Source of the DNA: an uncultured Candidatus Saccharibacteria bacterium
GTDB lineage: Bacteria > Patescibacteriota > Saccharimonadia > CAZBQI01
Reading direction: 5' to 3'
Length of the DNA: 64,000 bases
NCBI GenBank assembly: GCA_964494105.1
Contig: CAZBQI010000001.1
Span: 67,126-131,125 of the forward strand
Shown here: in pieces, positions 2,452 through 20,235 of the stretch
Position numbering within the stretch: the stretch's first letter is position 1
How the letters are laid out: the number at the start of each line of letters is the position of its first letter
The notes under the pieces: generated by a model
Databases searched by the model: none
What the model was told of the DNA's origin: nothing
Seen by the model: the letters and a program-made list of their open reading frames with translations, nothing else
Position numbers and translations under genes: made by a program

Positions 2452-2524
2452 AAACACCCTTTTTCTTAATACATTCAGTGTAACAAATGATTTAAGAAAC
2501 AAAGTAGGCTGTATAATATTACCA

Positions 2525-5467
2525 ATGCAAAAACGAAGGTGGCTAAACACCAAATTAGTGCTTGGCGTAGGAATTATATTTGTTTCTATATATACTTTTG
2601 CTACTCATTATTCACCGGTGCGCGCAGATCTAACGACTGGTTTACTTGTTCACTACACCTTTGAAAATACTAGTGGTAGCAATGTATACGATAGCTCAGG
2701 AAATAATCGAACTGCTTCACTAAGCGGTAATGCCACAATAAGTAGTGGCCTTTCAGGTAGCGGCGTTAACTTTGATGGAACTTCTGGCTATATGCAGGTG
2801 CCTCATCAGTTGGTGCCTGGCCAGCAGGCAGATTTTACCTACAGTTTTTTTGTTAAAGCCGATGCAGGTGGTGATAGCAATCAGTACTTAATGGGTCAAA
2901 GTAGTAGTGGCACGTTCAATAATGATTGCTTTAGCGTAGATTACGACAACGTAGGCAAGTCTTTAAAAGTACTAGCTACAAATAATGGTAATGGTGCTCA
3001 AATAACAACCTCGGCTGATCTTTCGAACTGGACGCATATTGCAGTCACAAATTCGCATACTTACGGTGAGTCGCAAGTATATGTCAATGGAGTTGCTACT
3101 TCAGGCCCAGAGGCGACATGTAGTCAGGCTCTCGCCAGTCAGTTTATGATTGGTAGAGCGCCTTACAGCGGTTATAACATGGAATTAGACGGGTCAATGG
3201 ACGAGATCCGGGTTTATAATCGCGTATTAAGCGCCGCCGAAATTTACCAGTTAGCTACCGAAGGCAATACGAATTCAGTTAACATAACTAGCCCAAGCAA
3301 TGGCAGTACTGTTAAGGGCTCTGTGAATCTTACTGCTAGTACGAGCGGTAGCCCTGCAATTGCATCGGTTAAGTATTATGCCAATGGAAGTGCACTTAGC
3401 ACGGCACTAACAACAGATCCCTATACATATACTTGGGATCTTAGTGCTGTCGAGCAAGGAGAGTATTTGCTGGTGGCTGTTGCTACCGATGTAAATGGGG
3501 TTACTGTGCCATCACAAGCCGTATTAGTAACGGTCGACAACGACCCAACAATAGCCATGCAAAGCTCCAAGAGTATACAGAAAACATCGAACAGGATTGC
3601 TTGGATAACTAGTGAGCCCACCACAGCGCGCGTGGATTATGGGTTAACAAGTTCATATGGTTCACAGACTACTCTTGATACTTCACTAAGTTATTATCAC
3701 GAGCAAACTCTGTCTAATTTAACGCCTGGTACAACTTATCATTACCGTGTCACATCCGTGGATTCTAATGATAATAGTGTTAGTTCTAGCGACTCGACCT
3801 TTACTACAATTAGTGATGCCACAGGTAATGAGTGGCATGTTACAACGAGTGGAACGTCTGGTGGAAATGGCTCAGTTAGTAACCCGTGGGATTTAGCGAC
3901 GGCTTTAGCGCAACCAGTTGCTGTTCAGCCAGGTGACACAATTTGGCTACATGGGGGGAACTATAGTGGAAACTACTCCAGCACGTTAACTGGTTCTGCC
4001 ACAGCGCCAATAGTTGTGCGTAACTACAACGATGAAAGAGTGATTATAGATGGTGGAGGTGGAAGCGGTTTTGCCCTGACTGTATATGGCTCGGATGCTT
4101 GGTACTGGGGTCTAGAAATTATGAGTTCTGGACTCGATAGGGATGTGTCTAACGCTGGATCGAGCCCGCCGGACCTAAACCACGCTTATGGATTTTATAT
4201 TTTTGGTGTTCGTACGCGGTTTATAAACAACATTGTTCACGACACGTCGCAGGGTTTTGGCTTTTGGACACCTGCAGTTGACTCAGAGCTTTATGGCAAT
4301 TTGGTTTACTACAACGGCTGGGAAGGTCCTGATCGTGGTCACGGACACGGTTTATATGTTCAAAATAATACCGGCATGAAGTACCTAGCTAATAATTTTG
4401 TATTTAGTAACTTTGGCTGGGGATTGCATGCTTACACTGAGGGAGGTCGCATAAATAACATTCAGACCGATGGCAATACTTTTTTTGAAAACGGTAAAAT
4501 CTCTGCCTTTGGATACACAACCAATCTGTTACATGGCGGGCTACAAATTGCTCAAAATCCAATGATTTTTAACAATGCAACCTATTACCCTCAAGCTGGA
4601 GGTGGTGGGGCGATAGGTCTTGGTTACAGTGCCGGATGCAATAGGCCAACGGTTGAGGGTAATTACTTTGCGGCAGAATCGGCCATTGATATTGGTGGTA
4701 GTTGTACTCATGAAACGTTTAAGAACAACTTATTTTATGGCAGTGTACCTGGTGGGCTTGAGACTAATTTCCCAGATAATACATATAAAACTAGCGCTCC
4801 TACTACTAATGCTACGCTACTGCGACCAAACCAATACGAGCCCAATAAAACAAATCTCACTATCTATAATTGGCAACAACTCAATAGTGTAGATGTGAAT
4901 CTATCCGCCGTCCTTACCGCTAATGATACGTACGAAATACGCGATGTTCAGAATTACTTTGGTGACCCAATTGCTAGTGGTACCTATGGGGGTAGTACAG
5001 TTTCTATTCCTATGAATTCAACGGCCGTTACAGCTGCTATTGGGTCTAATATACCGGTAGCACCAACTCATACCGCCAAAGAATTCGGCGCCTTTATGAT
5101 AATAAAGACCGGACACACCGACCCGGCTGATGAACCTCCAAGCGATGGTGCACCATCCTCAGGCGATGCCACTACAAATTCCACGAATAACACTAGTGGT
5201 TTTGGTAGAGTGTTGTCTATTATTAATACAGTTACACAATATGCTACAGGACAGTACTTCTTTGCCGATTCAGTTGTGGGCGTATCAGAACCAAACTCTA
5301 CTGACAGCACTGAAAAGAAAGTGGTAGAGGCCGGTCCTTTTGTTCAAGAAAATGCCTTAAAACAAATGTTCGCATCTCAGTGGCGTCCATTTTTAGCTAT
5401 TGGCGCTTTGACTCTAGCTGGAGGCTTGGTGGCAATTTATCTACGAAGGAAAACTAGAGTACATTAA
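2525..5467 (+). CDS. cell-surface LamG / Ig-like / FN3 / right-handed beta-helix protein with C-terminal TM anchor
   Basis: Start trimmed to ATG 2525 (MQKRRWLNTKLVLGVGIIF, signal-peptide-like). It has a LamG / concanavalin-like signature (DGSMDEIRVYNRVLSAAEIYQL), then Ig-like and FN3-like beta modules. A parallel beta-helix repeat region follows (NNIVHDTSQGFGFW, GNLVYYNGWEG, NNFVFSNFGWGLHAY). The C-terminus is a TM helix plus RRKTRVH. Confidence 0.7.
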   Translation: MQKRRWLNTKLVLGVGIIFVSIYTFATHYSPVRADLTTGLLVHYTFENTSGSNVYDSSGNNRTASLSGNATISSGLSGSGVNFDGTSGYMQVPHQLVPGQQADFTYSFFVKADAGGDSNQYLMGQSSSGTFNNDCFSVDYDNVGKSLKVLATNNGNGAQITTSADLSNWTHIAVTNSHTYGESQVYVNGVATSGPEATCSQALASQFMIGRAPYSGYNMELDGSMDEIRVYNRVLSAAEIYQLATEGNTNSVNITSPSNGSTVKGSVNLTASTSGSPAIASVKYYANGSALSTALTTDPYTYTWDLSAVEQGEYLLVAVATDVNGVTVPSQAVLVTVDNDPTIAMQSSKSIQKTSNRIAWITSEPTTARVDYGLTSSYGSQTTLDTSLSYYHEQTLSNLTPGTTYHYRVTSVDSNDNSVSSSDSTFTTISDATGNEWHVTTSGTSGGNGSVSNPWDLATALAQPVAVQPGDTIWLHGGNYSGNYSSTLTGSATAPIVVRNYNDERVIIDGGGGSGFALTVYGSDAWYWGLEIMSSGLDRDVSNAGSSPPDLNHAYGFYIFGVRTRFINNIVHDTSQGFGFWTPAVDSELYGNLVYYNGWEGPDRGHGHGLYVQNNTGMKYLANNFVFSNFGWGLHAYTEGGRINNIQTDGNTFFENGKISAFGYTTNLLHGGLQIAQNPMIFNNATYYPQAGGGGAIGLGYSAGCNRPTVEGNYFAAESAIDIGGSCTHETFKNNLFYGSVPGGLETNFPDNTYKTSAPTTNATLLRPNQYEPNKTNLTIYNWQQLNSVDVNLSAVLTANDTYEIRDVQNYFGDPIASGTYGGSTVSIPMNSTAVTAAIGSNIPVAPTHTAKEFGAFMIIKTGHTDPADEPPSDGAPSSGDATTNSTNNTSGFGRVLSIINTVTQYATGQYFFADSVVGVSEPNSTDSTEKKVVEAGPFVQENALKQMFASQWRPFLAIGALTLAGGLVAIYLRRKTRVH

Positions 5468-10322: not shown

Positions 10323-10994
10323 ATGGAACAGACGCCTAGAGAGCAACAGCCCGTAAAACAGAAAAGCAAATTTTCACCAACTCTAAATGTAATACTAATG
10401 GGGATATTAACGCTTGTATTGGCTATTGCTGCCGGCTATTTCTATTTGGAGTATAAGAAAATCAAAGAAAACCCACAGATTGTTACCAAGCAAGAAACTG
10501 AAGCATTGGTAGAGCAAGCAAACAAACTCATTGATTTGCCAAAAGACGAAACACCTCAGGTTGCAACCGTGCTAGATAAAGAAAAGCTCAAGGATCAGCC
10601 GTTTTTTGCTAATGCTCAAAATGGCGATAAAATACTGATTTATACCAAGGCCAAAAAAGCGGTAATTATACGACCGAAAGAAAATCGCCTGATTAATGTG
10701 GGGCCGATTGCTATTGATCAGAAAGCGCTAGTATCTGTTGCGCTGGTAAACGCCGGCGGAGACGTGGCAAAGGCCGAAAAGTCGATAAACGATGCCCTCA
10801 ACGCATCAGTTAGCATTAGTGGTAAGTCAAACGCCAAAACCAAGAATGTTAAGCAAATGATTGTAGTTGATGTTAGTGGCCAAAACGCCGAAGCTGCCGA
10901 ACAGATAGCCAGCGCAGTAGGTGGTGGCGTAGGTGCACTACCAAGTGGCGAAAGTGCCCCAGACGGCGCAGCCATTGTTGTATTCGTTAAGTAA
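10323..10994 (+). CDS. membrane-anchored LytR_C (cell-envelope-related) domain protein
   Basis: N-terminal TM helix. The C-terminal region (KNVKQMIVVDVSGQNAEAAEQIASAVGG) resembles a LytR C-terminal domain. Confidence 0.45.
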   Translation: MEQTPREQQPVKQKSKFSPTLNVILMGILTLVLAIAAGYFYLEYKKIKENPQIVTKQETEALVEQANKLIDLPKDETPQVATVLDKEKLKDQPFFANAQNGDKILIYTKAKKAVIIRPKENRLINVGPIAIDQKALVSVALVNAGGDVAKAEKSINDALNASVSISGKSNAKTKNVKQMIVVDVSGQNAEAAEQIASAVGGGVGALPSGESAPDGAAIVVFVK

Positions 10995-11076
10995 AACATA
11001 CCACTATAATTTATTTGACGAACAGCCTTTCTACCTCTATTATATAAGCATAAGTTAAGTGTGAGAAACCAAACAA

Positions 11077-11451
11077 ATGGCTGTGGGAAAAAAAATACTT
11101 ATTATTGAAGACGAAGTGTCTTTGCTGAATCCTTTGTTACAGAAGTTTAAAGATAAAGATTTTGATGTACATGGCGAAAAGAACGGTCGAGACGGACTGA
11201 AGAAGGTAAAAGCACTAAAGCCAGACATGGTTTTATTGGACTTAGTAATGCCCGAAATGGACGGCTTAACAATGCTACAGGCGCTACGCTCTGATTCTGC
11301 AATTAAAAACACTAAGGTCATTGTGTTAAGTAATCTAAGTGATGTCGAAAAAGCCAGCAAAGCAGCTGCGCTTGGTGCACTAGACTACATAGTGAAATCC
11401 GATTGGAAAATTAACGATATTGTTAAGCGAGTATCAGAAAAGCTGGCTTAG
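11077..11451 (+). CDS. stand-alone CheY-like response-regulator receiver domain
   Basis: 124 aa with ILIIEDE, the phospho-acceptor region LLDLVMPEMDG and a conserved downstream K, and no output domain. Its stop is 2 nt before the giant-gene ATG. Confidence 0.8.
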   Translation: MAVGKKILIIEDEVSLLNPLLQKFKDKDFDVHGEKNGRDGLKKVKALKPDMVLLDLVMPEMDGLTMLQALRSDSAIKNTKVIVLSNLSDVEKASKAAALGALDYIVKSDWKINDIVKRVSEKLA

Positions 11452-11453
11452 AC

Positions 11454-14400
11454 ATGTCTAAGCCAAAACAATCAAACGCGCCCAAGAGCAATCTTAAAGT
11501 TCCTGATAATTCGCCGGTTACAGGGGCCGATTATTCAAATGCGGTCGGGACGCTACTATTAGAGAATTCAAAAAACAGCGCTCGTTTGCGACGTTGGGGT
11601 CTTTTAATGCTAGGGCTTCAGCTCGCCGGAGCAGCCCTACTAATAGTTACTGGATTGTCGTTCTTTAATACCTACTACAGCCAAAAGAATATCGAAAAAA
11701 TAAAGAAAGACCCACTTGGCGAAGTAAAGATAGATTTCCAAGACATTGCCAAAGGATCGATTGGGTTTGATCAGCTTGATCCAGGCGTTATTACCAAAAT
11801 TGAACAGATAGATCGCACTCTTTTAGGTCAGCAAGGTAAGGTTGGCCCCCAGGGGCCGGCCGGCTCGACAACCGGTTCGGTGATTAGTGTTGGGTCAGGC
11901 GCCGGCCTTACCGGTGGCACAATAACATCGCGCGGCACATTAGCAATTAGCGCACCAACCTGCGCCGCTAATGAACGGCTTAGCTGGACTGGCACGGCAT
12001 TTGCCTGCCAAGCTGTTGCCTCCGGCACTGCCTCCGGCACCAGCCCGATTGTGTTCGATAGCAACACTGGCGATATAAGTTGCCCCACGTGCCTGACTAC
12101 AGTTGGTATTGCGTTTTCGGCAGCAGCCGATAGTGGTACAGACCAAAATTTGAATATTGGCGATACCCTAAGCTTAATTGGTGGTAACGGTATTTCTACC
12201 GCTGCGTCACTTAGCAATAACATCACCTTTAGCCTTGTCGATACTGCCGTCACGCCCGGTTTCTATGGTACCACCAGCTCTGTACCGTCGTTTACCGTTG
12301 ATGCCCAAGGCCGAATAACTGCTGCCAGTGATACGGCGATTAGTATTAATGCCAGTGCTATTTCTGCGGGAACTCTATCTGTTACCCGTGGTGGTACCGG
12401 TGTCGATGGCTCAGGTGCTACCAATGGCCAGCTCCTGATTGGTAACGGCAGTGGTTACAGTTTAGCTAATCTTACGGCTACCGGTCCTTTGGGCGTTACC
12501 AATGGTGCCGGCACCATAAACCTCACTTGTGCAACTTGTGTTACGACCAGTGGTAACGGTGCCATTACCAGTTCTGGTGGCGATGTCACATTAAGCGGTA
12601 CTACAACTGGCCGGTTAATTGGCTCGGGCAATGTTAACTTTGATCTATCTTCTACCGGAGTGGTGGGTGCTACCTACGGTTCAGCCAGTTCAGTACCCGT
12701 CTTTACAGTTGATGGTAAGGGCCGCATTACTTCAGCCAGTAATACGGCGATTGCTGGTTTAACTAGTTCTAATTTATCGGGCAGTGCTGCCATCACTAAT
12801 GCCCAGTTACAAAATAGCGTTATCACCTTTAATTCGGGTAACGGCTTAACTGGTGGCGGGGCGGTGTCGCTTGGCGGCAGTACTAGCTTGGCCATTAGTG
12901 CGCCTACTTGTCTTTCAAACGAACGGCTTAGTTGGAGCGGGTCGGCCTTTACCTGCGCAACCGTTGCTGCAGGCGGTAGCCAGGCGGCGAACACCTTTTT
13001 TGCTGGGCCGAGCTCCGGCGGTGCGGCGGCGCCTGGTTTTCGCGGAATTGTTGCAGCCGATTTAGGTACCGGCACAGCTAATTCGCAATCCGTTTTGGCC
13101 GGTAACCAAACTTGGCTGCCATTGCTTGATGGCGGCGGCAAGATTTTAACCAGCCTATTGCCTGCCAGTGGTTTAAATTATCAAGGATCTTGGAACGCTA
13201 ATACCAATACGCCAAGCTTAAGTAGTAGTGGCGGCGGTGGCGTACAGGGCGATTTTTATATTATTGACGTGGCAGGAACAACCTCGATTGATGGTAATAG
13301 CACGTGGAACGTTGGCGACTGGATTCTAAATAATGGCGCAACATGGGATCGGATATCAAATACAAATGCGGTTAGTAGTGTTAATGGTCAAACTGGCGCG
13401 GTAGTACTAGATAGTGATGATGTATCGGAAGGCGTCAGTAACTTGTACTTTACCAATGCTCGTGCCCGCGGGGCACTATCCGGCACCGGGCCGATTAGTT
13501 ACAATTCCGGCACTGGAGTAATTGATTGCCCAACCTGTGTTACCACTAGTGGTAACGGGGATATTGTTTCCGGTACAGGCCTATCAATATCTGGCACAAC
13601 TACTGGACGACTCATTGGTACTGGCAATGTGACTTTTGGCTTGTCGACGGCTGTACCAACAAGTGTAGTAAACGACACCAACGTTACGGGCTCGATTTCG
13701 GCTAATGCTTTGACGCTGGGTTGGACTGGTCAACTATCAACAGCCCGTGGTGGTACCGGTGTCGATGGCTCAGGTGCTACCAATGGCCAGCTCCTGATTG
13801 GTAACGGCAGTGGTTACAGTTTAGCTAATCTTACGGCTACCGGTCCTTTGGGCGTTACCAATGGTGCCGGCACCATAAACCTCACTTGTGCAACTTGTGT
13901 TACGACCAGTGGTAACGGTGCCATTACCAGTTCTGGTGGCGATGTCACATTAAGCGGTACTACAACTGGCCGGTTAATTGGCTCGGGCAATGTTAACTTT
14001 GATCTATCTTCTACCGGAGTGGTGGGTGCTACCTACGGTTCAGCCAGTTCAGTACCCGTCTTTACAGTTGATGGTAAGGGCCGCATTACTTCAGCCTCCA
14101 ACACCGCCATTGCCCTAAACGCCTCTGCCATTACCGCCGGTACCCTCAGTGTTACCCGTGGCGGTACCGGAGTAGATGGTTCCGGCGCCACCAACGGCCA
14201 GCTGTTGATCGGTAACGGTACGGGGTACTCTTTGGCCACGCTAGCCTCATCCGGGCCTATTGGTATTACTAACTCCGCTGGTGGCATTAGTATTGGTTGT
14301 GCAACCTGCCTAACAACCGGTACAACCTTATTTACCGCGGCTGGTGATGTTGGTGTAAACCAAAGCGTGACCCAGGGCCAAACCATTACCTTTATTGGTG

Positions 14401-16385
14401 GCGTTGGTTTAACCACTACAGGTTCTGCTACCCGAAATATGACAATAGATTTGGATAATACCGCCGTCACCCCCGGTTCCTATGGTACTGCTAGTTCAGT
14501 AGGCTCATTTACTGTAGATGCGCAGGGACGAATTATCGCTGCTAGCAACTCATCGATATCTATCAACGCCAGCGCAATTACAGCCGGCACCGGGTCGGTA
14601 TCATTCACTTCTGCAACATCCAATGCAATTTCGCTCGACTCTGGAACAACCGGCGGGATAAATATTGGAACAGGTGCGAACTCGAAGACCATTACCATCG
14701 GTAACACTACCGGTACAACCGGTATTAACATCGACTCCGGTAGCGGTAACATTAATTTGCGTCCTGGTGGTTCCGGGACAACCGCTAATGTCCAAATAGG
14801 TGCTGGCGGGGCTGGCTCGACAACGCCCGATTTATTGGTGCTTGATAGAAAAAGTAGTGCCGGTGACCCTGCCGGTACCAACGGTGCAATGTATTATAAT
14901 GCTAGCTCAAATAAATTCCGTTGTTTCGAAAACTCCACCTGGAGGGACTGTATCAAGGGGTCAATAAACCTTGGTCATGCGGCCACCTACGACACGAACG
15001 AAGCCCTTACTAATGTGGCAGCTTCTCAGGTGACTCTCGGTACGGTATCTGTTACGCCAGCATCGGATACTGGTGATGTCTATGTAACTGGCAACGCGGA
15101 TGTCTATAGTAGCAACAATACCGACCAAACATTTGTATTTACCATAGAAACCGGGTCAACTTGTACCGGTACGACTGTGGCGACAAGGTCATATACAATT
15201 ACTGCATCGAACTCCGCAACGGTAGGCCGTGGCTCACTTGTAGTAAGTGGTATTGTCTCTGACCCCGGTGAGTCTTCGCAGGCATATTCACTCTGCGCAT
15301 CAACTGCAACAGGTGATACCGATGTTCTGAACTGGCGTATCGAAGCATTGGTTATTGAATCAGCAGGTGCTGATGTTGCGGAGATGTATTATACGCACGA
15401 TGATGCCCGGCCCGGCGAAGTTGTAAGTATTGACGGCAGTATGAAGGCTGGTGTTCGTAGATCAAACGGCTCGTACGATCCTATGGTGTTGGGTATTATA
15501 AGCACAAAGCCAGGGTACGTTCTTGCTGATGCTGAGGGGGTCGACCCTACGGCTAGGCCGGTTATACTGGCTCTTGCCGGTCGTGTTCCAGTCAAAGTTT
15601 CGGACGAAAATGGGCCAATAAAGGCTGGCGATGCGCTGACACCATCGTCGATACCGGGCGTGGCTATGAAAGCTACCCAAAACGGCTGGGTACTTGGCGT
15701 AGCCATAGAAGACCAAAAGCCAGGAGCGGGCACCTTGATGACTTTTGTGAATAGATCTTGGTATACAGGGGGCAGTAATAACCCCCCCTCACTGACCGGT
15801 ATGAGTTTAGGCGATGCAGATTTACCTGGCATAAAATCAGCCCAATCCGAAGGTGTAAAGAACGGCTTGCAATCAGAAAATCCGGAGTTGGTTGCTCAAG
15901 CTTTGGGCATTTTAAATGATATTCAAAATACGGTGGTAACCCAGCAAACCCAGCTCAACGCACTTGAAGCTAATCAAGCCAAAGCCAGCTCGAATTCACA
16001 GCAGATTAACCAAGCGATATTTAATGGCGGTATTGTGGCCGGCGATGTAGAGTTCCAAGGCAACGCCACCTTTAATGCTATCGCCACATTCAAGGGTCAG
16101 AGTGTCTTTAAGGGGGGTGCTATATTTGAAGGAGACGTAGCAATTAATGGGCGCGTGAAGTTCGGTGCTAATGGATCGGGCGTGGCAACTGTACCAGCCG
16201 GCGCCACGAGCGTTACAGTTAGCTTTACTAGCCCGTATGACGGACGGCCAATTGTAAACTTAACTCCTATAGATTACGACGGGAAATTCAAACTTAGTGG
16301 CGCATCGGCCGGTGGCTTTACGATTGTACTAGATTCGCCCGTGCCAAGCCCGGTAGAGTTTAACTGGTTAGCGAGTGAAAATTAA
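11454..16385 (+). CDS. giant (1643 aa) membrane-anchored repeat fibre protein (tail-fibre-like beta repeats)
   Basis: A cytoplasmic N-terminus of about 50 aa is followed by one TM helix (LLMLGLQLAGAALLIVTGLSFF). A short Gly-X-Y run follows (GQQGKVGPQGPAG). There are then many Gly/Thr/Ser-rich repeats carrying recurring CPTC / CATC motifs, including a protein-level repeat present in two exact copies. The C-terminal part is non-repetitive, with a coiled-coil-like segment (LNALEANQAKASS). Confidence 0.7.
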   Translation: MSKPKQSNAPKSNLKVPDNSPVTGADYSNAVGTLLLENSKNSARLRRWGLLMLGLQLAGAALLIVTGLSFFNTYYSQKNIEKIKKDPLGEVKIDFQDIAKGSIGFDQLDPGVITKIEQIDRTLLGQQGKVGPQGPAGSTTGSVISVGSGAGLTGGTITSRGTLAISAPTCAANERLSWTGTAFACQAVASGTASGTSPIVFDSNTGDISCPTCLTTVGIAFSAAADSGTDQNLNIGDTLSLIGGNGISTAASLSNNITFSLVDTAVTPGFYGTTSSVPSFTVDAQGRITAASDTAISINASAISAGTLSVTRGGTGVDGSGATNGQLLIGNGSGYSLANLTATGPLGVTNGAGTINLTCATCVTTSGNGAITSSGGDVTLSGTTTGRLIGSGNVNFDLSSTGVVGATYGSASSVPVFTVDGKGRITSASNTAIAGLTSSNLSGSAAITNAQLQNSVITFNSGNGLTGGGAVSLGGSTSLAISAPTCLSNERLSWSGSAFTCATVAAGGSQAANTFFAGPSSGGAAAPGFRGIVAADLGTGTANSQSVLAGNQTWLPLLDGGGKILTSLLPASGLNYQGSWNANTNTPSLSSSGGGGVQGDFYIIDVAGTTSIDGNSTWNVGDWILNNGATWDRISNTNAVSSVNGQTGAVVLDSDDVSEGVSNLYFTNARARGALSGTGPISYNSGTGVIDCPTCVTTSGNGDIVSGTGLSISGTTTGRLIGTGNVTFGLSTAVPTSVVNDTNVTGSISANALTLGWTGQLSTARGGTGVDGSGATNGQLLIGNGSGYSLANLTATGPLGVTNGAGTINLTCATCVTTSGNGAITSSGGDVTLSGTTTGRLIGSGNVNFDLSSTGVVGATYGSASSVPVFTVDGKGRITSASNTAIALNASAITAGTLSVTRGGTGVDGSGATNGQLLIGNGTGYSLATLASSGPIGITNSAGGISIGCATCLTTGTTLFTAAGDVGVNQSVTQGQTITFIGGVGLTTTGSATRNMTIDLDNTAVTPGSYGTASSVGSFTVDAQGRIIAASNSSISINASAITAGTGSVSFTSATSNAISLDSGTTGGINIGTGANSKTITIGNTTGTTGINIDSGSGNINLRPGGSGTTANVQIGAGGAGSTTPDLLVLDRKSSAGDPAGTNGAMYYNASSNKFRCFENSTWRDCIKGSINLGHAATYDTNEALTNVAASQVTLGTVSVTPASDTGDVYVTGNADVYSSNNTDQTFVFTIETGSTCTGTTVATRSYTITASNSATVGRGSLVVSGIVSDPGESSQAYSLCASTATGDTDVLNWRIEALVIESAGADVAEMYYTHDDARPGEVVSIDGSMKAGVRRSNGSYDPMVLGIISTKPGYVLADAEGVDPTARPVILALAGRVPVKVSDENGPIKAGDALTPSSIPGVAMKATQNGWVLGVAIEDQKPGAGTLMTFVNRSWYTGGSNNPPSLTGMSLGDADLPGIKSAQSEGVKNGLQSENPELVAQALGILNDIQNTVVTQQTQLNALEANQAKASSNSQQINQAIFNGGIVAGDVEFQGNATFNAIATFKGQSVFKGGAIFEGDVAINGRVKFGANGSGVATVPAGATSVTVSFTSPYDGRPIVNLTPIDYDGKFKLSGASAGGFTIVLDSPVPSPVEFNWLASEN
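12385..12737 (+). repeat. 353-bp perfect direct repeat, copy 1 (inside the giant gene)
   Basis: Identical by eye, base for base, to 13744-14096. Encodes RGGTGVDGSGATNGQLLIGNGSGYSLANLTATGPLGVTNGAGTINLTCATCVTT... Confidence 0.9.
13744..14096 (+). repeat. 353-bp perfect direct repeat, copy 2 (inside the giant gene)
   Basis: Identical to 12385-12737. The offset is 1359 bp, a multiple of 3. A third copy diverged at synonymous sites starts near 14157. Confidence 0.9.
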
Positions 16386-16457
16386 CGTGGTTTTCAAGGC
16401 GGAATTTGCTAGACTCAATGAAGTAAACTACAAAGCCAAATTGAAGACGGAATATAT

Positions 16458-18830
16458 ATGAAACAGAGAACATCTTGGGCACACCCTGTTAAGAGATTGC
16501 CATTTTCTAATCGCTTAAATCTATTAGAATTTGACAACAAGGTTGTAGCAGCCGAATTTTTGCGTAAAAAGAAAATTGGCCAAAACACCTACGAATTTAA
16601 ATTTGCATTGCATCGTAGCATTAAATATGTGCCTGGCCAATATGTTTGGCTTAATCTGCCGCAATTGCGGGCAACAGATAAGAAAGGCGCACGGCGAGCA
16701 ATGTCTATCGTGTATGTGGGGGCTGGCAATAAAGAGATTTCTATCGCAATGAGAATAAGCGATAGTAGTTTCAAGAAAGCTGCATTGCGGCTTACTTCGG
16801 GACAACAGGTAGAAATTATCGGGCCTAATGGTTCTTCTTTTTGCTTGCCGGAAAATGGAAAACAATCAGTTGTGCTTATTGCTGGCGGCACAGGTATTGC
16901 TCCGTTTGTAAACTTAGTACAAAATGAAGAATATAAAAAATCGAAAAGGACAATTCACCTTTTCTATACAGATGAGGGTGGCAATAGTGCGCCATATTTA
17001 GGTTTACTTAACAAAATAAAGTTAAACAACTATCACTTAAAATTTAGCCAAGTGCCTTTTGCTGAAAATGATTTTGCAGGAATTCATGAGTCGATGCGAG
17101 CAATATATTATCTAAGCGGACCTCAGAAATTTGTTGATTTCTACTACCGATTACTTAGCGGTATGGGAATTGCAAAATCAAGCATGAGGTTTGAAAATTT
17201 CTACCCAAGTAATGATGTTGTAGAGCTTATGCAACAGCTGTTTCGCGATGGCGATGCAATAAAACCCGTACCTGGAGATACCAAATTAGCCATTCAGCGG
17301 CGCGATATTTTGCTATCGGCAATACAAAGCTCATCACACCACATAGTCATCACTGACATTAATGGCGTTATTGTACTGGCAAACAAAGCTGCAGAAAGAA
17401 TAACAGGTTTTAGTTTTTACGAAATGGAAGGGCAAACACCACGCCTGTGGGGAGGGCTAATGCCTGTAAATTTCTATTCCAAACTATGGAACAGTAAGCT
17501 ACACGGGCTAACAATTGACGAAGAGATTGTTAACCGGCGTAAAGACGGATCGCTTTACTTGGTTATGTCGCACATTTCACCGATAAAAAATAAGCATGGC
17601 AAGGCGATAGGGTTTATTGGCACTGAAGAGGACATTACCCTGAACCGTCAAAAAGAAATCGAATCAAACACCATAGCTGAACAACTGGAGTCGACATTAT
17701 TAGGGATTGCCGAAGGTCTAATAATCACTGACGGTAAAGGAAGAATACAGCGGGTAAATGCAGCAGCTTGTAGCATGTTAGGTTATAGCCAAAAAGAGCT
17801 AGTTGGTAAAAATGCGAATGATGCTATTGAAATGCTTGATTCGAAAGAAGTCCCGATACCAAAAAATGAACGGATCACCAGCAGAGTAATCTCAAGTTCG
17901 GCGCCAGTAGTAACTGAAGATATTGCAAACAGCATATATTACCGAAAAAAGGACGGAACTAAGTTTCCCGTATATGTTGCGGCTTCACCAGTAATAGAAA
18001 ACAGTCGAATGGTTGGTTCTGTAGAAATATTTAGAGACATAAGTCGAGATAAAGAAATTGACATTGCAAAATCAGAGTTCGTATCTTTAGCTTCGCATCA
18101 GTTGCGTACTCCACTCTCGGCCATTAATTGGAATGCGGAACTCTTAATGGGAGGAGATGCGGGTAAGTTAACCGCTGACCAAGCGAACTTCGTAAAGGAA
18201 ATTTACAGTAGTAGTCAAAGAATGGTGGATCTAGTCAGGTCATTACTAAACGTCTCTCGTATCGAGCTTGGTACACTTGGTTTTGATCCATCGCCACAAA
18301 ATGTAAACGAATTGATAAAGGCAATTATGGCAGACGAAAGACTGCTTCGTGATAAAGAAGAAATTTCAGTTAAACTCAATCTTTCAAAAATACCTAGGAT
18401 ACCTGTCGATCCAAGACTAGTTACGCTACTAGTGCAAAATCTTGGTAGTAATGCTATTAAGTACTCGAAACATGGTGGCGAAATTATTGTGACAAGTGAA
18501 TATCTGGCAAATCCTTCAAAAAGAAAGAATTTTAGAAAAAAAGGTATAAAAATCCCAAGTGTATATTTGTGTTTTAAAGATAGTGGTATTGGTATTCCAA
18601 AAGAACAGCAAAAAAATATATTTTCAAAAATGTTCCGAGCTGATAACGCCCAGGAGCAAGTAACTGATGGTAATGGTTTGGGCTTGTATATGGTTAAGGG
18701 GATTGTCGAGAGCATTGATGGCAAAATATGGTTTGAATCTAGCGTAAAAAATGGCACAAGTTTCCACGTATTATTGCCACTTGAAGGCTTGGCCAAAAAG
18801 GATTCAGGTATAAAACTACTTGATGTATAA
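16458..18830 (+). CDS. soluble sensor histidine kinase: ferredoxin-reductase-like FAD/NAD(P) module + 2 PAS + HisKA + HATPase
   Basis: The N-terminus has an FNR-type FAD-binding signature (RAMSIVY, i.e. RxYS-like) and the NAD-binding motif GGTGIAPF. Two PAS-like regions follow. The H-box is SHQLRTPL, the N-box NLGSNAIKYS, and the G-boxes DSGIGIP and GNGLGL. No TM helix. Confidence 0.8.
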   Translation: MKQRTSWAHPVKRLPFSNRLNLLEFDNKVVAAEFLRKKKIGQNTYEFKFALHRSIKYVPGQYVWLNLPQLRATDKKGARRAMSIVYVGAGNKEISIAMRISDSSFKKAALRLTSGQQVEIIGPNGSSFCLPENGKQSVVLIAGGTGIAPFVNLVQNEEYKKSKRTIHLFYTDEGGNSAPYLGLLNKIKLNNYHLKFSQVPFAENDFAGIHESMRAIYYLSGPQKFVDFYYRLLSGMGIAKSSMRFENFYPSNDVVELMQQLFRDGDAIKPVPGDTKLAIQRRDILLSAIQSSSHHIVITDINGVIVLANKAAERITGFSFYEMEGQTPRLWGGLMPVNFYSKLWNSKLHGLTIDEEIVNRRKDGSLYLVMSHISPIKNKHGKAIGFIGTEEDITLNRQKEIESNTIAEQLESTLLGIAEGLIITDGKGRIQRVNAAACSMLGYSQKELVGKNANDAIEMLDSKEVPIPKNERITSRVISSSAPVVTEDIANSIYYRKKDGTKFPVYVAASPVIENSRMVGSVEIFRDISRDKEIDIAKSEFVSLASHQLRTPLSAINWNAELLMGGDAGKLTADQANFVKEIYSSSQRMVDLVRSLLNVSRIELGTLGFDPSPQNVNELIKAIMADERLLRDKEEISVKLNLSKIPRIPVDPRLVTLLVQNLGSNAIKYSKHGGEIIVTSEYLANPSKRKNFRKKGIKIPSVYLCFKDSGIGIPKEQQKNIFSKMFRADNAQEQVTDGNGLGLYMVKGIVESIDGKIWFESSVKNGTSFHVLLPLEGLAKKDSGIKLLDV

Positions 18831-18839
18831 TCGAAAACT

Positions 18840-19229
18840 ATGGATGCCAGGCTGAAAAGCACGATTCTTATTGTTGAAGACGAAATCCCTTTACAAAAAG
18901 TAGTTGGGTTTAAGCTCAAGAATGCCGGGTTTAATGTGATTTCTGCAAGGAAAGCCGAAGAGGCAATAAACTATATTAAGACTGCCGAATCAATTGACTT
19001 AGTTTGGCTAGACCATTACTTAATCGGTACGAAAACCGGATTAGATATTGTAAAAATAATCAAAAACAGCTCCGAGTTCAAACATATACCAATTTTTGTT
19101 GTAACCAATTCAGCTGACCTTAATAAGAAGCACGCATATATTAAATTTGGAATTGAAAAATATTTTATTAAATCAGACTTACGCCTAGATGAAGTAATAG
19201 ATGCTATTAAAGCCTCTCTAAAAGAATAG
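18840..19229 (+). CDS. stand-alone CheY-like receiver domain protein
   Basis: 129 aa with ILIVEDE ... LVWLDHYL and no output domain. Starts 10 nt after the kinase stop. Confidence 0.7.
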   Translation: MDARLKSTILIVEDEIPLQKVVGFKLKNAGFNVISARKAEEAINYIKTAESIDLVWLDHYLIGTKTGLDIVKIIKNSSEFKHIPIFVVTNSADLNKKHAYIKFGIEKYFIKSDLRLDEVIDAIKASLKE

Positions 19230-19286
19230 GCTACTGCAAAGTGATGCGTAGGTGTAGAATAGGCATAAGCACTAAACGAGCCAATA

Positions 19287-19682
19287 ATGGAACCTAATGA
19301 CAAAGGCAAAAAGAAAATACTAGTTGTTGAGGATGATAAATCTGTAAATGCAGCGATGAGTGCCGGCCTGACAAACAATGGCTATTTAGTTACAGCAAAA
19401 ATGAATGGCGCTGAGGGAATAGAAGCTACAAATACTAATGATTTTGATGTAATTATTCTCGACCTTACTATGCCAAAGATGGACGGGCTTGATGTGCTAA
19501 AAACACTTAAAGCCAATCCCAAAACGAAGCAAATACCAGTTATTATCGCGACTAATAACACGCAAACTGAGCTGGTTTATGAATGTATTGCCGCCGGCGC
19601 GCGCGATTACTTTATAAAGTCTGACATTACACTCATACAGCTATGCGCAGCTATCGACAAAGCTTTAGCTAGCATTGAATAA
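19287..19682 (+). CDS. stand-alone CheY-like receiver domain protein
   Basis: 131 aa with ILVVEDD ... VIILDLTMPKMDG ... K, and no output domain. Confidence 0.8.
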   Translation: MEPNDKGKKKILVVEDDKSVNAAMSAGLTNNGYLVTAKMNGAEGIEATNTNDFDVIILDLTMPKMDGLDVLKTLKANPKTKQIPVIIATNNTQTELVYECIAAGARDYFIKSDITLIQLCAAIDKALASIE

Positions 19683-19780
19683 ATAAGCTATTGCATCATT
19701 TAACGAAATCGCTTGGCGCTCAAAAGTTTATATTAATATGGTAATGCCTTGCGTATGCTATACCAGAAAGTGATAAAAAA

Positions 19781-20215
19781 ATGGACTTCGACACTGAAAT
19801 TGAGTTGAATAAACCCTTAGGAATTGTGTGGGCGTTTTTAATTGATCCTGCCAATATGCATCTTTGGCTAGGTGAGGTCGTTAGGTTTGAACAAAAGGGT
19901 GGCACTAAGGGATTAGCTGGCTTTCGTTGCCGTTATTTTTTTAGCAACGGCTATGTTGATCAACGAATTCAAACAAGTGATATGCACAAGAAATTAGTTA
20001 TGACACTCGAGAACGATAGTTTCAATACCAATATGAAAATGGTATTTAACGAACAAGGTGGCAAGACAAGTATTAAGATCATGAGTAATACGGAAATTGA
20101 TGTTCCGGGCGCGGCGTTTGCCGGAAATGCCATACGCTCGGCAATTGACACCAAGATGTCTACATATCTGAATCGGCTACAAATGGCAATTGAACAACAA
20201 AAAACTACCCCCTAG
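19781..20215 (+). CDS. SRPBCC (Bet v1-like / polyketide-cyclase-like) family protein
   Basis: 144 aa. The N-terminal pattern (LNKPLGIVWAFLIDPANMHLWL) is typical of SRPBCC ligand-binding proteins. Confidence 0.4.
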   Translation: MDFDTEIELNKPLGIVWAFLIDPANMHLWLGEVVRFEQKGGTKGLAGFRCRYFFSNGYVDQRIQTSDMHKKLVMTLENDSFNTNMKMVFNEQGGKTSIKIMSNTEIDVPGAAFAGNAIRSAIDTKMSTYLNRLQMAIEQQKTTP

Positions 20216-20235
20216 AAAGAGGGTAGTTTAGTTTT

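What the first reader, a model, noticed from the sequence alone, without database searches (positions are those of the whole stretch)
11077..19682. Two-component module wrapped around a giant surface-fibre gene
The gene order is a stand-alone receiver (11077-11451), then the 1643-aa fibre gene (11454-16385), then a cytoplasmic FNR-PAS-PAS histidine kinase (16458-18830), then a receiver (18840-19229), then another receiver (19287-19682). All are on one strand. The first receiver's stop is 2 nt from the fibre ATG, which suggests translational coupling.

No receiver carries a DNA-binding or other output domain. One kinase with three CheY-like single-domain partners therefore points to phosphorelay or phosphate-sink logic, or direct protein-protein control. 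This could, for example, couple redox state to production, length switching or presentation of the fibre. I know of no described system with this arrangement.
Basis: partly seen in the sequence, partly recalled or inferred. Interest (0 to 1): 0.8.

Follow-up and report, generated by a model that had tools for sequence, protein, structure and literature searches.

The report
Sensor kinase cassette dedicated to giant adhesin
In an ultra-small (CPR/Patescibacteria) bacterium, a redox-type sensor kinase and three tiny receiver proteins are encoded around a giant, phage-tail-fibre-like surface protein, and this pairing recurs across distant relatives in a way that suggests the signalling proteins act directly on the fibre's intracellular tail.

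Summary
All five ORFs lie at the stated coordinates with the stated domains. The three receivers are complete single-domain receivers, the kinase is cytoplasmic, and its N-terminus is a genuine FNR-superfamily module.

The kinase/receiver–fibre link is not chance. Receiver and/or PAS-kinase genes lie beside fibre homologues in 11 other loci from distant CPR lineages, in different orders and with no other shared synteny. The link is conditional:
- Fibres with a cytoplasmic N-terminal extension of at least 34 aa have a receiver gene directly upstream in 8 of 9 cases.
- Fibres that start at the membrane anchor never do (0 of 12-13; Fisher p≈3-4e-5).
- In several relatives the extension is a MerR-like HTH.

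REC1's stop codon and the fibre's ATG sit in one stable hairpin (z=-3.7).

The exact "wrapped" gene order is unique to this genome. The FNR-PAS kinase with several receivers also occurs without any fibre.

Best explanation (inferred, not shown): an energy/redox-sensing kinase acts through REC1 on the tail of a trimeric, lectin-tipped adhesin. I found no published description. It is a new variant of two-component signalling.

The parts
10323..10994 (+). p223: small membrane protein (TM aa 16-43, conserved domain, weak LytR_C-like C-terminus). It is the most widespread partner of the giant fibre genes.
   Evidence: A homologue lies directly beside a giant fibre-like ORF in about 41 of 84 CPR loci. 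It is 64% identical to the L004 orthologue in the same p223-REC-fibre order. LytR_C matches are weak, best E=0.0016.
11015..11043 (+). Promoter-like site TTGACG-17-TATTAT, 34 nt upstream of REC1.
   Evidence: This is a consensus match only; the number of such sites in the region does not exceed the shuffled expectation.
11077..11451 (+). REC1: stand-alone receiver, translationally coupled to the fibre gene.
   Evidence: Response_reg E=1.4e-22. The acceptor pocket is complete. The L004 orthologue is 55% identical and in the same position. REC1 is most similar (44-45%) to receivers that directly follow FNR-PAS kinases in fibre-less cassettes. Its 120 nearest relatives are all stand-alone.
11444..11465 (+). 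RNA hairpin UGGCUUAGA-CAUG-UCUAAGCCA. REC1's stop codon is in the 5' arm and the fibre's ATG is in the loop.
   Evidence: the 61-nt context folds at -15.9 kcal/mol, z=-3.68, and 0 of 200 shuffles fold as well. The same hairpin was also flagged.
11454..16385 (+). Giant fibre gene (1643 aa), an N-terminally membrane-anchored, mosaic, phage-tail-fibre-like surface protein.
11454..11591 (+). Cytoplasmic tail of the fibre (aa 1-46), with the conserved juxtamembrane motif SNAVGTLLLENSKNSARLRRW.
   Evidence: The motif is 14 of 16 identical to L004, against 46% identity across the aligned N-terminal region. This tail type is rare: 4 proteins among 1.84 billion representatives. Tails of at least 34 aa correlate with an upstream receiver gene.
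11592..11666 (+). Single transmembrane anchor of the fibre (aa 47-71).
   Evidence: Hydropathy maximum of 2.16, preceded by RLRR, which implies an N-in orientation.
11826..11864 (+). Short collagen-like Gly-X-Y run GQQGKVGPQGPAG (aa 125-137).
   Evidence: Read directly from the sequence. Some relatives carry Pfam Collagen domains.
11871..14783 (+). Repeat-module shaft (aa ~140-1110) made of diverged units of about 140 aa.
   Evidence: Self-comparison of the protein. phrog_36881 matches 4 times.
12385..12737 (+). Copy 1 of an exact 353-nt direct repeat inside the fibre gene.
   Evidence: It is 100% identical to 13744-14096. The edges are sharp. The spacing is 1359 nt, which is 453 codons in frame.
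13744..14096 (+). Copy 2 of the exact 353-nt direct repeat.
13125..13436 (+). Phage 'tail protein' domain (aa 558-661).
   Evidence: phrog_31460, E=8.9e-19.
14781..16382 (+). Distal C-terminal region (aa 1110-1643). It comprises a β-sandwich, the GADVAE...GRVPVKV module (15366-15764), a coiled coil, a short β-helix and a terminal β-sandwich.
   Evidence: AF2 model, pLDDT 70, terminal domain above 90. Foldseek matches TNF-like trimeric lectins (9ib7 E=3e-6; BC2L-C) and phage spike and tail-fibre tips. Phage proteins match at E=1.6e-11 with 30-37% identity. At least 472 viral-contig stretches carry the module.
16458..18830 (+). Cytoplasmic sensor histidine kinase. Domains: FNR-like (16533-17246), PAS1 (17331-17645), PAS2 (17685-18044), HisKA (18066-18269, His547), HATPase_c (18408-18785).
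   Evidence: FNR motifs: PGQYVW, RRAMS, GPNGS, GGTGIAPF, LSGPQ. The H, N, G1, F and G2 boxes are present.
18840..19229 (+). REC2: stand-alone receiver, the most divergent of the three, 9 nt after the kinase.
   Evidence: Response_reg E=3.4e-14. The acceptor pocket is complete.
19287..19682 (+). REC3: stand-alone receiver.
   Evidence: Response_reg E=1.2e-24. The acceptor pocket is complete.
19781..20215 (+). SRPBCC/Polyketide_cyc2-like small protein, possibly the last gene of the transcript.
   Evidence: Pfam E=7e-6, just below the curated cut-off. It is on the same strand after a 98-nt gap. No terminator-like site with a strong stem lies between REC1 and this gene on the + strand.
20202..20229 (.). 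12-bp palindromic hairpin overlapping the SRPBCC stop codon, followed on the + strand by AGTTTTGTT. This is the likely end of the transcription unit.

Best explanation
This is a dedicated signalling module for a giant surface adhesin.

The fibre is a trimeric, phage-tail-fibre-like protein. It is anchored in the membrane by one N-terminal helix, with a 46-aa tail in the cytoplasm and a lectin-like tip about 1,600 residues away.

The soluble kinase reads the cell's redox or energy state through an FNR-type flavin/NAD(P)H-binding domain and two PAS domains. It autophosphorylates on His547 and passes the phosphoryl group to single-domain receivers.

REC1 is made in step with the fibre, because a ribosome finishing REC1 must melt the hairpin that holds the fibre's start codon. 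REC1 is proposed to dock on the fibre's cytoplasmic tail. That would tie the adhesin's display, clustering, stability or signalling to the cell's energy state. REC2 and REC3 would act as phosphate sinks or side branches that set the response kinetics.

Shown here: the domain make-up, the intact catalytic residues, the recurrent neighbourhood, the tail-versus-receiver correlation, and the junction hairpin.

Inferred: phosphotransfer, the REC1-tail contact, the direction of signalling, and the physiological output.
For: 1. The parts are intact: three complete receivers, a kinase with all catalytic boxes, and no TM segment in the kinase.

2. The kinase N-terminus belongs to the FNR superfamily (E=1.6e-27), with conserved PGQYVW, RRA[FM]S, GPxGS and GGxGxAPF motifs.

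3. Receiver and/or kinase genes lie beside fibre homologues in L004, L007, L008, L009, L012, L043, L059, L169, L170, L171 and L173. These span Saccharibacteria, Dojkabacteria and Nomurabacteria. Gene orders differ, and nothing is shared outside the module apart from a VKOR homologue in L043.

4. Signalling ORFs are 4-5 times denser within 1 kb of the fibre/p223 module than at 1-10 km... within 1-10 kb in the same loci: 0.055 against 0.012 per kb, Poisson P=4e-4.

5. Fibres with a cytoplasmic extension of at least 34 aa have a receiver gene directly upstream in 8 of 9 loci. Fibres with 17 aa or less have one in 0 of 12-13 loci. Fisher p=3-4e-5.

6. The tail's juxtamembrane motif is the best-conserved part of the fibre's N-terminal region between the window and L004.

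7. The stop/start hairpin has z=-3.7. In L004 a GTG start in the fibre's frame lies 1 nt after the receiver's stop codon.

8. The distal fibre domains match trimeric TNF-like lectins and phage receptor-binding tips.

9. REC1 resembles the receivers that directly follow FNR-PAS kinases elsewhere (44-45% identity), so it is probably a cognate partner of this kinase.
Against: - No experiment or co-folding calculation supports a REC1-tail contact.
- None of REC1's 120 nearest relatives is fused to a fibre or to any other domain.
- The window's tail type is found in only 4 proteins, so its conservation is thinly sampled.
- The association is facultative. All 7 non-redundant FNR-PAS sensor loci from metagenomes lack a fibre or p223, and most fibre+p223 modules lack a kinase or receiver.
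- The tail-versus-receiver correlation may partly reflect two fibre subfamilies that each inherited their own operon, so the data points are not fully independent.
- The L004 junction hairpin is weak (z=-1.8).
- The receiver tree has no support values. REC1 does not fall within the cluster of receivers that sit upstream of HTH-type fibres.
Confidence: 0.45

Rival explanations
1. Transcriptional co-regulation only. The kinase and receivers control, or are simply co-expressed with, the fibre operon through a DNA-binding partner encoded elsewhere or next door. REC1 sits upstream only because it belongs to the operon and never touches the fibre protein.
For: - The genes appear to form one transcription unit: a promoter-like site at 11015-11043, short gaps, and no strong terminator before 20202.
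- L169, L170, L171 and L173 each carry a small divergent XRE-type HTH gene next to the kinase-receiver-fibre cassette. This could be the DNA-binding partner.
- Target genes encoded next to their two-component system are common in bacteria (established knowledge).
Against: - No DNA-binding protein is encoded in the window's module.
- All three receivers lack output domains.
- This reading does not explain why receiver genes accompany only fibres with a cytoplasmic extension. It also does not explain why that extension is an HTH in several relatives.
Confidence: 0.3
2. Outside-in sensing. The fibre is the sensor. Engagement or tension at its tip alters the cytoplasmic tail, which binds or releases REC1 and so redirects phosphate flow from the kinase to REC2 and REC3. 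Host contact would thus be integrated with redox state.
For: - The same structural evidence as the best explanation applies: the tail-versus-receiver correlation and the conserved juxtamembrane motif.
- Relatives carry a MerR-like HTH on the cytoplasmic side of the anchor (P0063 E=2.5e-22, P0072 E=2.6e-12; P0012, P0013 and P0031 E≈1e-3). That architecture is typical of membrane-tethered signal transducers.
Against: - A single TM helix on a trimeric fibre is a poor conduit for conformational signals, unless the signal is clustering or proteolysis.
- The window's tail has no recognisable domain.
- No evidence bears on the direction of signalling.
Confidence: 0.15
3. Incidental neighbours. The kinase/receiver cassette and the mosaic fibre gene work independently. 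The fibre was simply inserted into, or next to, an existing REC-HK-REC-REC cassette.
For: - Fibre-less cassettes such as L105 (REC-REC-HK-REC) look like the window with the fibre removed.
- The fibre family is mosaic and evidently recombines.
- The signalling genes have lower GC (0.34-0.40) than p223 (0.44).
Against: - The neighbourhood recurs in at least 11 other loci with different gene orders and no surrounding synteny.
- The 1-kb enrichment has P=4e-4, and the tail correlation has p≈3-4e-5.
- The REC1-fibre junction is tight and structured.
Confidence: 0.08
4. Phage-derived element. The fibre is a prophage or tailocin tail fibre, and the surrounding genes are phage cargo.
For: - A PHROG tail-protein domain is present.
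- The C-terminal module is abundant on viral contigs.
- The model matches phage proteins structurally.
Against: - No phage structural, replication or lysis genes are nearby. The neighbours are an AcrB-type transporter, VKOR, an L,D-transpeptidase, MsrB, PrsA and PyrH.
- The fibre has an N-terminal membrane anchor rather than a baseplate-attachment domain.
- The homologues lie on CPR chromosomal contigs of up to 1.1 Mb.
Confidence: 0.02

Closest known systems
Single-domain response regulators that act by protein-protein contact (CheY-FliM, DivK-DivL/PleC, CpdR-ClpXP, Cle proteins of Caulobacter). Cited from established knowledge.
   Same: These are stand-alone receivers with complete acceptor pockets and no output domain. 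Their output is binding to a target protein. Several receivers can share one kinase.
   Different: The proposed target here is the short cytoplasmic tail (an HTH domain in relatives) of a giant extracellular fibre. The kinase is HisKA-type with FNR-like and PAS inputs, not CheA. No motor, protease or cell-cycle partner is evident.
LapA/LapD/LapG inside-out control of a giant adhesin in Pseudomonas fluorescens. Cited from established knowledge.
   Same: A cytoplasmic signal decides whether a giant, repeat-rich surface adhesin is displayed. The regulators are encoded next to the adhesin.
   Different: No c-di-GMP receptor (GGDEF/EAL/HAMP), LapG-type protease, type I secretion genes or RTX repeats were found in the locus. 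The organism is a monoderm-like CPR bacterium, and the adhesin is anchored by its own TM helix.
Multi-CheY phosphate-sink systems (for example Sinorhizobium meliloti CheA with CheY1 and CheY2). Cited from established knowledge.
   Same: One kinase has several single-domain receivers. The extra receivers may drain phosphate and shape the kinetics.
   Different: The kinase is not CheA: Pfam finds no Hpt or CheW domain. No MCP or CheW gene is seen in the locus.
Redox- and flavin-sensing PAS kinases and regulators (NifL, FixL, ArcB, MmoS, Aer). Cited from established knowledge.
   Same: A cytoplasmic or membrane sensor couples redox or energy state to His-Asp signalling through PAS domains. NifL matches PAS1 at E=2e-25.
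   Different: The flavin or nucleotide here is most likely bound by a complete FNR-type two-domain module placed N-terminal to the PAS domains. I found no characterised kinase with this architecture. The family appears CPR-wide.
Phage tail fibres and appendages, and trimeric TNF/C1q-like lectins (BC2L-C N-terminal domain, PLTL, phi812 spike knob).
   Same: Shared features are a PHROG tail domain, the GADLAE...GRVPVKV module, a collagen-like stretch, a coiled coil, and a TNF-like β-sandwich.
   Different: The gene is chromosomal. The protein is membrane-anchored by an N-terminal TM helix, not attached to a virion. No Peptidase_S74 chaperone domain is detected in this copy.
Membrane-tethered transcription regulators (ToxR, CadC; RsgI-type anti-sigma factors with extracellular carbohydrate-binding domains). 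Cited from established knowledge.
   Same: Relatives of the fibre (P0063, P0072, P0012, P0013, P0031) have the layout cytoplasmic HTH, TM helix, extracellular domain.
   Different: The window's fibre has no HTH. In the relatives the ectodomain is 1,500-5,600 aa, and a separate receiver gene sits upstream.

Membership tests
Two-component system (HisKA-class kinase plus receiver) | HisKA dimerisation domain with the phospho-acceptor His in an H-box | tested here: met
   HisKA E=4.2e-16. H-box SHQLRTPL at aa 546-553.
Two-component system (HisKA-class kinase plus receiver) | HATPase_c catalytic domain with N, G1, F and G2 boxes | tested here: met
   HATPase_c E=7.8e-21. Boxes NAIKYS, DSGIGI, FSKMFR and GNGLGL are present.
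Two-component system (HisKA-class kinase plus receiver) | Receiver with the acidic pocket, phospho-acceptor Asp, and conserved Thr/Ser and Lys | tested here: met
   REC1, REC2 and REC3 all have E-D, D57, T/S87, Y106 and K109.
Two-component system (HisKA-class kinase plus receiver) | Phosphotransfer from this kinase to these receivers | not testable with these tools
   This needs an in-vitro phosphotransfer assay. The only indirect support is adjacency and REC1's similarity to kinase-adjacent receivers.
FNR (ferredoxin-NADP+ reductase-like) superfamily | Two-domain FAD_binding_6 plus NAD_binding_1 module | tested here: met
   The profile of 23 homologues matches PDB reductases: 1krh E=1.6e-27, 4wqm E=4.8e-25, and many more over about 225 positions. 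The single sequence is borderline, E≈4e-4.
FNR (ferredoxin-NADP+ reductase-like) superfamily | Flavin-binding R-x-Y-S/T motif and nucleotide-binding GGxGxxP and CGP motifs | tested here: inconclusive
   GGTGIAPF is canonical. RRAMS (RRAFS in most relatives) has Met or Phe in place of Tyr. LSGPQ has Ser in place of Cys. Cofactor binding itself cannot be tested here.
Chemotaxis-type multi-CheY system | CheA-class kinase (Hpt and CheW-like domains) with MCP and CheW partners | tested here: not met
   The kinase is HisKA-class with no Hpt or CheW hits. The locus has no such genes.
Spo0-type multistep phosphorelay | A histidine phosphotransferase (Hpt or Spo0B-like) between the receivers | tested here: not met
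   No Hpt domain occurs in any protein of the locus. The rest of the genome could not be examined.
Lap-type adhesin control (LapA/LapD/LapG) | c-di-GMP receptor LapD, protease LapG, a type I secretion system, and an RTX adhesin | tested here: not met
   None of these domains is found in the five proteins or their neighbours.
Phage tail fibre or tailspike | Homology to phage tail-fibre modules | tested here: met
   phrog_31460 E=8.9e-19. BFVD hits at E=1.6e-11 with 30-37% identity. At least 472 viral-contig matches.
Phage tail fibre or tailspike | Encoded within a phage or prophage structural gene cluster | tested here: not met
   The neighbours are housekeeping and envelope genes. The protein has an N-terminal TM anchor.
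Phage tail fibre or tailspike | C-terminal intramolecular chaperone domain (Peptidase_S74) | tested here: not met
   There is no PF13884 hit even at E≤10. The domain is present in some relatives and in the neighbouring L009 protein.
Membrane-tethered HTH regulators (ToxR/CadC-like) | Cytoplasmic DNA-binding HTH N-terminal to the TM helix | tested here: not met
   The window's fibre tail (aa 1-46) has no HTH hit (protein 9). The feature is met only in relatives P0063 and P0072, and weakly in P0012, P0013 and P0031.
Known anti-phage defence systems (PADLOC) | A match to a defence-system protein model beyond generic domains | tested here: not met
   Only generic REC and ATPase-domain hits were found.

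The most novel reading that the evidence does not exclude
Giant CPR surface fibres are transmembrane signalling devices. Their cytoplasmic N-terminus is a short conserved tail here and a MerR-like HTH in relatives. In this reading it is the effector half of a 'split response regulator', and the receiver half is the stand-alone REC encoded immediately upstream. Phosphorylation by an energy/redox-sensing kinase, together with mechanical or ligand engagement of a fibre more than 1,600 aa long, would converge on one membrane-tethered complex. That would give these host-dependent bacteria a direct wire between host contact, metabolic state and adhesin behaviour or gene expression.
Probability: 0.25. 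Interest if true: 0.85.

Novelty: new variant of a known kind. Interest (0 to 1): 0.65.

Why it matters
CPR/Patescibacteria make up a large share of bacterial diversity. All cultivated members live attached to host cells, yet how they regulate attachment is essentially unknown. The papers I could search on Saccharibacteria genetics and biology mention adhesins and pili, but not two-component control.

This finding defines three things:
- a conserved kinase-receiver-giant-adhesin module;
- a simple rule for when the module occurs, namely when the fibre has a cytoplasmic extension;
- a concrete candidate interaction, REC1 with a 46-aa tail.

Together these make the regulation of attachment directly testable by phosphotransfer, peptide binding and co-folding.

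If the contact is real, it adds a new output class to two-component signalling: a receiver acting on the tail of a giant adhesin. It would also be a bacterial analogue of inside-out adhesion control.

The FNR-type input domain on a PAS kinase is also an uncharacterised sensor architecture that is widespread in the CPR.

Tried and rejected
Searches that gave nothing usable:
- Pfam, NCBIfam and PDB sequence searches on the whole fibre returned nothing.
- The window's own contig is not in the gene-position index.
- Tandem Repeats Finder found no arrays in the fibre gene. Its repeats are dispersed and diverged, apart from the 353-nt pair.
- Rfam found no RNA family anywhere in the window.
- PADLOC gave only generic domain hits.
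- Six literature searches and two papers read found no description of this arrangement, and none of an FNR-fused PAS kinase.

Tests that came back negative or weak:
- A search for REC1 fused to a fibre or HTH found none. All 120 nearest relatives are stand-alone.
- The reciprocal neighbourhood test showed that FNR-PAS sensors elsewhere have multiple receivers but no fibre or p223. I therefore rejected the idea that the kinase family is fibre-specific.
- The L004 junction hairpin is not significant.

Structure work on p223:
- The single-sequence model was too poor (pLDDT 54) to use for a fold search.
- The p223 profile had no significant PDB match.

Readings rejected on missing defining parts: prophage or tailocin, chemotaxis-type system, Lap-type system, and Spo0-type phosphorelay (see the membership tests).

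'Length switching' is neither supported nor excluded. The only evidence is the in-frame exact repeat.

Full report
**1. The observation**

| Gene | Coordinates | Length |
|---|---|---|
| REC1 | 11077-11451 | 124 aa |
| fibre | 11454-16385 | 1643 aa |
| kinase | 16458-18830 | 790 aa |
| REC2 | 18840-19229 | 129 aa |
| REC3 | 19287-19682 | 131 aa |

The gaps between them are 2, 72, 9 and 57 nt.

*Receivers.* Pfam finds only Response_reg in the three small proteins. Aligned with CheY, all three keep the full phospho-acceptor set: E/D12, D13, D57, T/S87, Y106, K109.

*Kinase.* It has two PAS domains, HisKA and HATPase_c. All catalytic boxes are present: the H-box SHQLRTPL at aa 546-553, plus N, G1, F and G2. 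It has no transmembrane segment.

*The 'FNR' label.* On the single sequence this is borderline (E≈4e-4). A profile of 23 homologous N-termini matches solved FNR-family reductases at E=1.6e-27 and below, across the whole two-domain module. The motifs PGQYVW, RRA[F/M]S, GPxGS and GGxGxAPF are conserved.

*Rest of the window.* No other receiver or kinase gene occurs in the 64 kb.

**2. What the fibre is**

- *No database match.* It has no Pfam, NCBIfam or PDB sequence match.
- *Topology.* A single TM helix (aa 47-71) follows a basic 46-aa N-terminal segment. The tail is therefore cytoplasmic and about 1,570 residues lie outside.
- *Shaft.* After a short Gly-X-Y run (aa 125-137) come diverged repeat units of about 140 aa (aa ~140-1110). 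They are interrupted by a phage 'tail protein' domain (phrog_31460, E=9e-19, aa 558-661).
- *Distal region.* An AlphaFold model of aa 1110-1643 has mean pLDDT 70, with the terminal domain above 90. It shows β-sandwich domains, a coiled coil and a short β-helix.
- *Structural matches.* The model matches trimeric TNF-like lectins (PLTL 9ib7 E=3e-6; BC2L-C) and phage spike and tail-fibre tips. It also matches uncharacterised phage proteins at 30-37% identity (E=1.6e-11).
- *Phage module.* The GADVAE...GRVPVKV module is found in at least 472 stretches of viral contigs.
- *Not a prophage.* The neighbours are an AcrB-type transporter, a LamG/Ig surface protein, VKOR, an L,D-transpeptidase, MsrB, PrsA and PyrH.

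The fibre is thus a chromosomal, membrane-anchored, probably trimeric, phage-tail-fibre-like adhesin. Homologues are giant proteins of CPR bacteria (Saccharibacteria, Dojkabacteria and others). They are mosaics that share different subsets of these modules.

**3.

The gene just upstream of REC1 is p223 (10323-10994). It has a TM helix, a conserved domain and a weak LytR_C-like end.

A scan of one genome per species with a p223 profile returned 80 CPR loci. In about half of them (41 of 84 non-redundant loci) a giant ORF lies directly beside p223, usually immediately upstream of it. Fibre plus p223 is therefore a CPR-wide two-gene module.

**4. Is the kinase/receiver-fibre link real?**

*Neighbourhoods of fibre homologues.*

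| Locus | Arrangement |
|---|---|
| L004 (988-kb contig) | p223 -> REC (55% identical to REC1) -> fibre; a split FNR-PAS/PAS-kinase lies divergently upstream |
| L009 (Saccharibacteria) | kinase -> REC -> fibre ... p223 |
| L043 (Saccharibacteria) | fibre -> p223 -> FNR-PAS kinase -> REC |
| L007 | fibre -> p223 ... kinase |
| L008 | p223-like -> REC -> HTH-TM ORF -> fibre |
| L059 (Nomurabacteria) | fibre -> p223 ... REC, kinase, REC |
| L169 | PAS kinase -> REC -> fibre |
| L170 | three RECs -> fibre, with a kinase 3 kb away |
| L171, L173 (Dojkabacteria) | PAS kinase -> REC -> fibre |
| L012 | one ORF fuses an FNR-PAS N-terminus to the fibre's C-terminal module; a deletion remnant of a kinase->REC->fibre cassette or an assembly chimera |

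*Synteny.* Outside these genes the loci share essentially no synteny with the window.

*Enrichment.* Within the p223-anchored loci, signalling ORFs occur at 0.055 per kb within 1 kb of the module. At 1-10 kb the rate is 0.012 per kb. That is 8 observed against 1.7 expected (Poisson P=4e-4). By loci it is 6 against 1.2 (P=1.5e-3).

**5. The link is conditional, and the condition is informative**

*Reciprocal test.* FNR-PAS sensors form a CPR-wide family. They occur as stand-alone sensors of about 400 aa and as kinase fusions of about 600-800 aa. I examined 9 metagenome loci that carry one (7 non-redundant). None has a fibre or p223. Most have one to three stand-alone receivers: L091 kinase+2, L095 kinase+3, L105 REC-REC-kinase-REC. 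'One kinase, several CheY-like receivers' is therefore an autonomous CPR cassette. The window's 'wrapped' order looks like such a cassette with the fibre placed inside it.

*Which fibres carry it.* I classified every complete fibre ORF in the fetched loci by the length of the segment before its TM helix.

| Cytoplasmic segment | Loci | Receiver gene directly upstream |
|---|---|---|
| At least 34 aa | window, L004, L008, L009, L169, L170, L171, L173, L172 | 8 of 9 (exception L172) |
| At most 17 aa | 12-13 loci | 0 |

Fisher's exact test gives p=3-4e-5.

*What the extension is.* In several relatives it is a MerR/HTH_17-like helix-turn-helix. The match is strong in P0063 and P0072, near threshold in P0012, P0013 and P0031 (which share the window fibre's C-terminal module), and weak in P0007 and P0011. 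The window and L004 instead share a short tail. Its juxtamembrane motif SNAVGTLLLENSKNS-R--RW is 14 of 16 identical, against 46% identity across the aligned N-terminal region. This tail type is rare: 4 proteins among 1.84 billion representatives.

*Caveat.* Tail-bearing and tail-less fibres may be two subfamilies, each with its own inherited operon. The data points are not fully independent.

**6. The REC1-fibre junction**

REC1's TAG (11449-11451) lies in the 5' arm of a 9-bp hairpin, and the fibre's ATG (11454-11456) lies in its 4-nt loop. The hairpin is UGGCUUAGA-CAUG-UCUAAGCCA (11444-11465). Its 61-nt context folds at -15.9 kcal/mol, with z=-3.7, and 0 of 200 shuffles fold as well.

A ribosome terminating on REC1 would open this hairpin. 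That is the classical arrangement for translational coupling (an inference from established mechanisms).

In L004 a GTG start in the fibre's frame lies 1 nt after the receiver's stop. The hairpin there is weak (z=-1.8).

A promoter-like site lies 34 nt upstream of REC1. The first strong hairpin with a T-rich tail overlaps the stop of the SRPBCC gene at 20202-20229. This fits a single REC1-to-SRPBCC transcript but does not prove one.

**7. Mechanism**

*Best explanation (confidence 0.45).* A soluble kinase reads redox or energy state through its FNR-type and PAS domains and phosphorylates the single-domain receivers. REC1 is co-translated with the fibre and docks on the fibre's cytoplasmic tail. 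That links adhesin display or behaviour to metabolic state. REC2 and REC3 act as sinks or branches. REC1 is 44-45% identical to receivers that directly follow FNR-PAS kinases in fibre-less cassettes, so it is probably a cognate partner.

*Shown:* the parts, intact catalytic residues, the recurrent neighbourhood, the tail correlation and the hairpin.

*Inferred:* phosphotransfer, the contact, the direction of signalling and the output.

*Rivals:*
- Purely transcriptional co-regulation through a separate DNA-binding partner, such as the divergent XRE-type HTH genes next to the cassettes in L169-L173: 0.3.
- Outside-in sensing, with the fibre as the contact sensor: 0.15.
- Incidental adjacency: 0.08.
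- A phage element: 0.02.

**8. Comparison with known systems**

It works like two known kinds of system: single-domain response-regulator systems that act by protein contact (CheY, DivK, CpdR), and, at the level of logic, Lap-type inside-out control of a giant adhesin.

It is a bona fide HisKA-class two-component system, and its input domain belongs to the FNR superfamily.

It is not a member of these systems, because each has defining parts that were tested and not found:
- chemotaxis-type (no CheA, CheW or MCP);
- Spo0-type (no Hpt);
- Lap-type (no LapD, LapG, type I secretion or RTX);
- phage tail fibre in the strict sense (no phage context and no S74 domain);
- PADLOC defence systems.

Six literature searches and two papers on Saccharibacteria genetics and biology gave no description of two-component control of these proteins, nor of an FNR-fused PAS kinase.

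**9. Verdict**

The exact gene order is idiosyncratic. The kinase cassette is autonomous. Every biochemical step remains inferred.

Novelty: a new variant of a known kind. Interest: 0.65.

The most novel reading not excluded is that the stand-alone receiver and the fibre's cytoplasmic domain form a 'split response regulator' tethered to a giant adhesin. I put this at probability about 0.25. It would be of high interest if true.

Noticed in passing
window 12385-12737 and 13744-14096: An exact 353-nt direct repeat lies inside the fibre gene. Its edges are sharp: identity falls to background immediately outside. The spacing is 1359 nt, or 453 codons in frame. This could reflect recent gene conversion or duplication, a substrate for in-frame length variation, or an assembly artefact.
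   Followed up: partly
window 10323-10994; L001-L088: p223 has a TM helix, a conserved domain and a weak LytR_C-like end. It forms a CPR-wide family that sits directly beside giant surface-protein genes in about half of 84 loci. It is uncharacterised and has no significant Pfam or PDB match.
   Followed up: partly
L012 11845-14304: An 819-aa ORF fuses an FNR-like+PAS sensor N-terminus in frame to the fibre's C-terminal module, with no TM helix. It looks like a deletion remnant of a kinase->REC->fibre cassette, or a metagenome assembly chimera.
   Followed up: partly
P0063, P0072, P0012, P0013, P0031, P0007, P0011; L172 1-28121: Many giant fibre relatives have a cytoplasmic MerR/HTH_17-like HTH followed by a TM helix and a giant ectodomain. 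L172 holds three such genes in a row (over 5,600, 2,706 and over 3,200 aa), with a p223-like gene and no kinase or receiver.
   Followed up: partly
L008 9682-10053: A 123-aa ORF encoding an HTH and a TM helix overlaps the called start of the fibre gene in another frame. The called fibre protein has no TM helix. The two are probably one gene split by a frameshift, either a sequencing error or a real one.
   Followed up: no
L169 489-713, L170 7556-7780, L171 7396-7641, L173 1-213 (all - strand): A small XRE-type HTH gene (71-81 aa) is divergently transcribed next to the kinase-receiver-fibre cassette in four loci. The window has no counterpart.
   Followed up: no
P0122-P0187; L089-L111: FNR-like+PAS sensors form a CPR-wide family (Uhrbacteria, Kaiserbacteria, Levybacteria and others). 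They occur in two forms: about 400 aa without a kinase, and about 600-800 aa fused to HisKA and HATPase. They are often followed by 1-3 stand-alone receivers. In L004 and L089/L090 the sensor and the kinase are separate adjacent ORFs.
   Followed up: partly
window 11077-20215: The signalling genes and the SRPBCC gene have lower GC (0.34-0.41) than p223 (0.44) and the window average (about 0.44). The fibre is at 0.50, consistent with its Gly/Ala/Thr/Ser-rich composition.
   Followed up: no
window 2336-5467; L012 5593-11474: A 1043-aa Laminin_G_3/Big_7/FN3-like surface protein lies 5 kb upstream of p223. Two paralogous copies (48-56% identical, one with a C-terminal TM anchor) directly follow p223 in L012. 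Other large surface proteins therefore also cluster with p223.
   Followed up: no
L009 7817-9880: A 688-aa protein with YadA-head repeats and a Peptidase_S74 chaperone domain lies between the fibre and p223. It is a second adhesin of tail-fibre type in the same cluster.
   Followed up: no
L170 8335-9060 and L173 10186-10974: Proteins of about 240-260 aa with weak Alph_Pro_TM-like matches lie next to receiver genes in two of the fibre cassettes. Their function is unknown.
   Followed up: no
L006 9161-9643: A 160-aa Zn-ribbon+PAS protein is encoded directly upstream of a tail-less fibre homologue (P0005). This is another kind of sensor-fibre adjacency.
   Followed up: no
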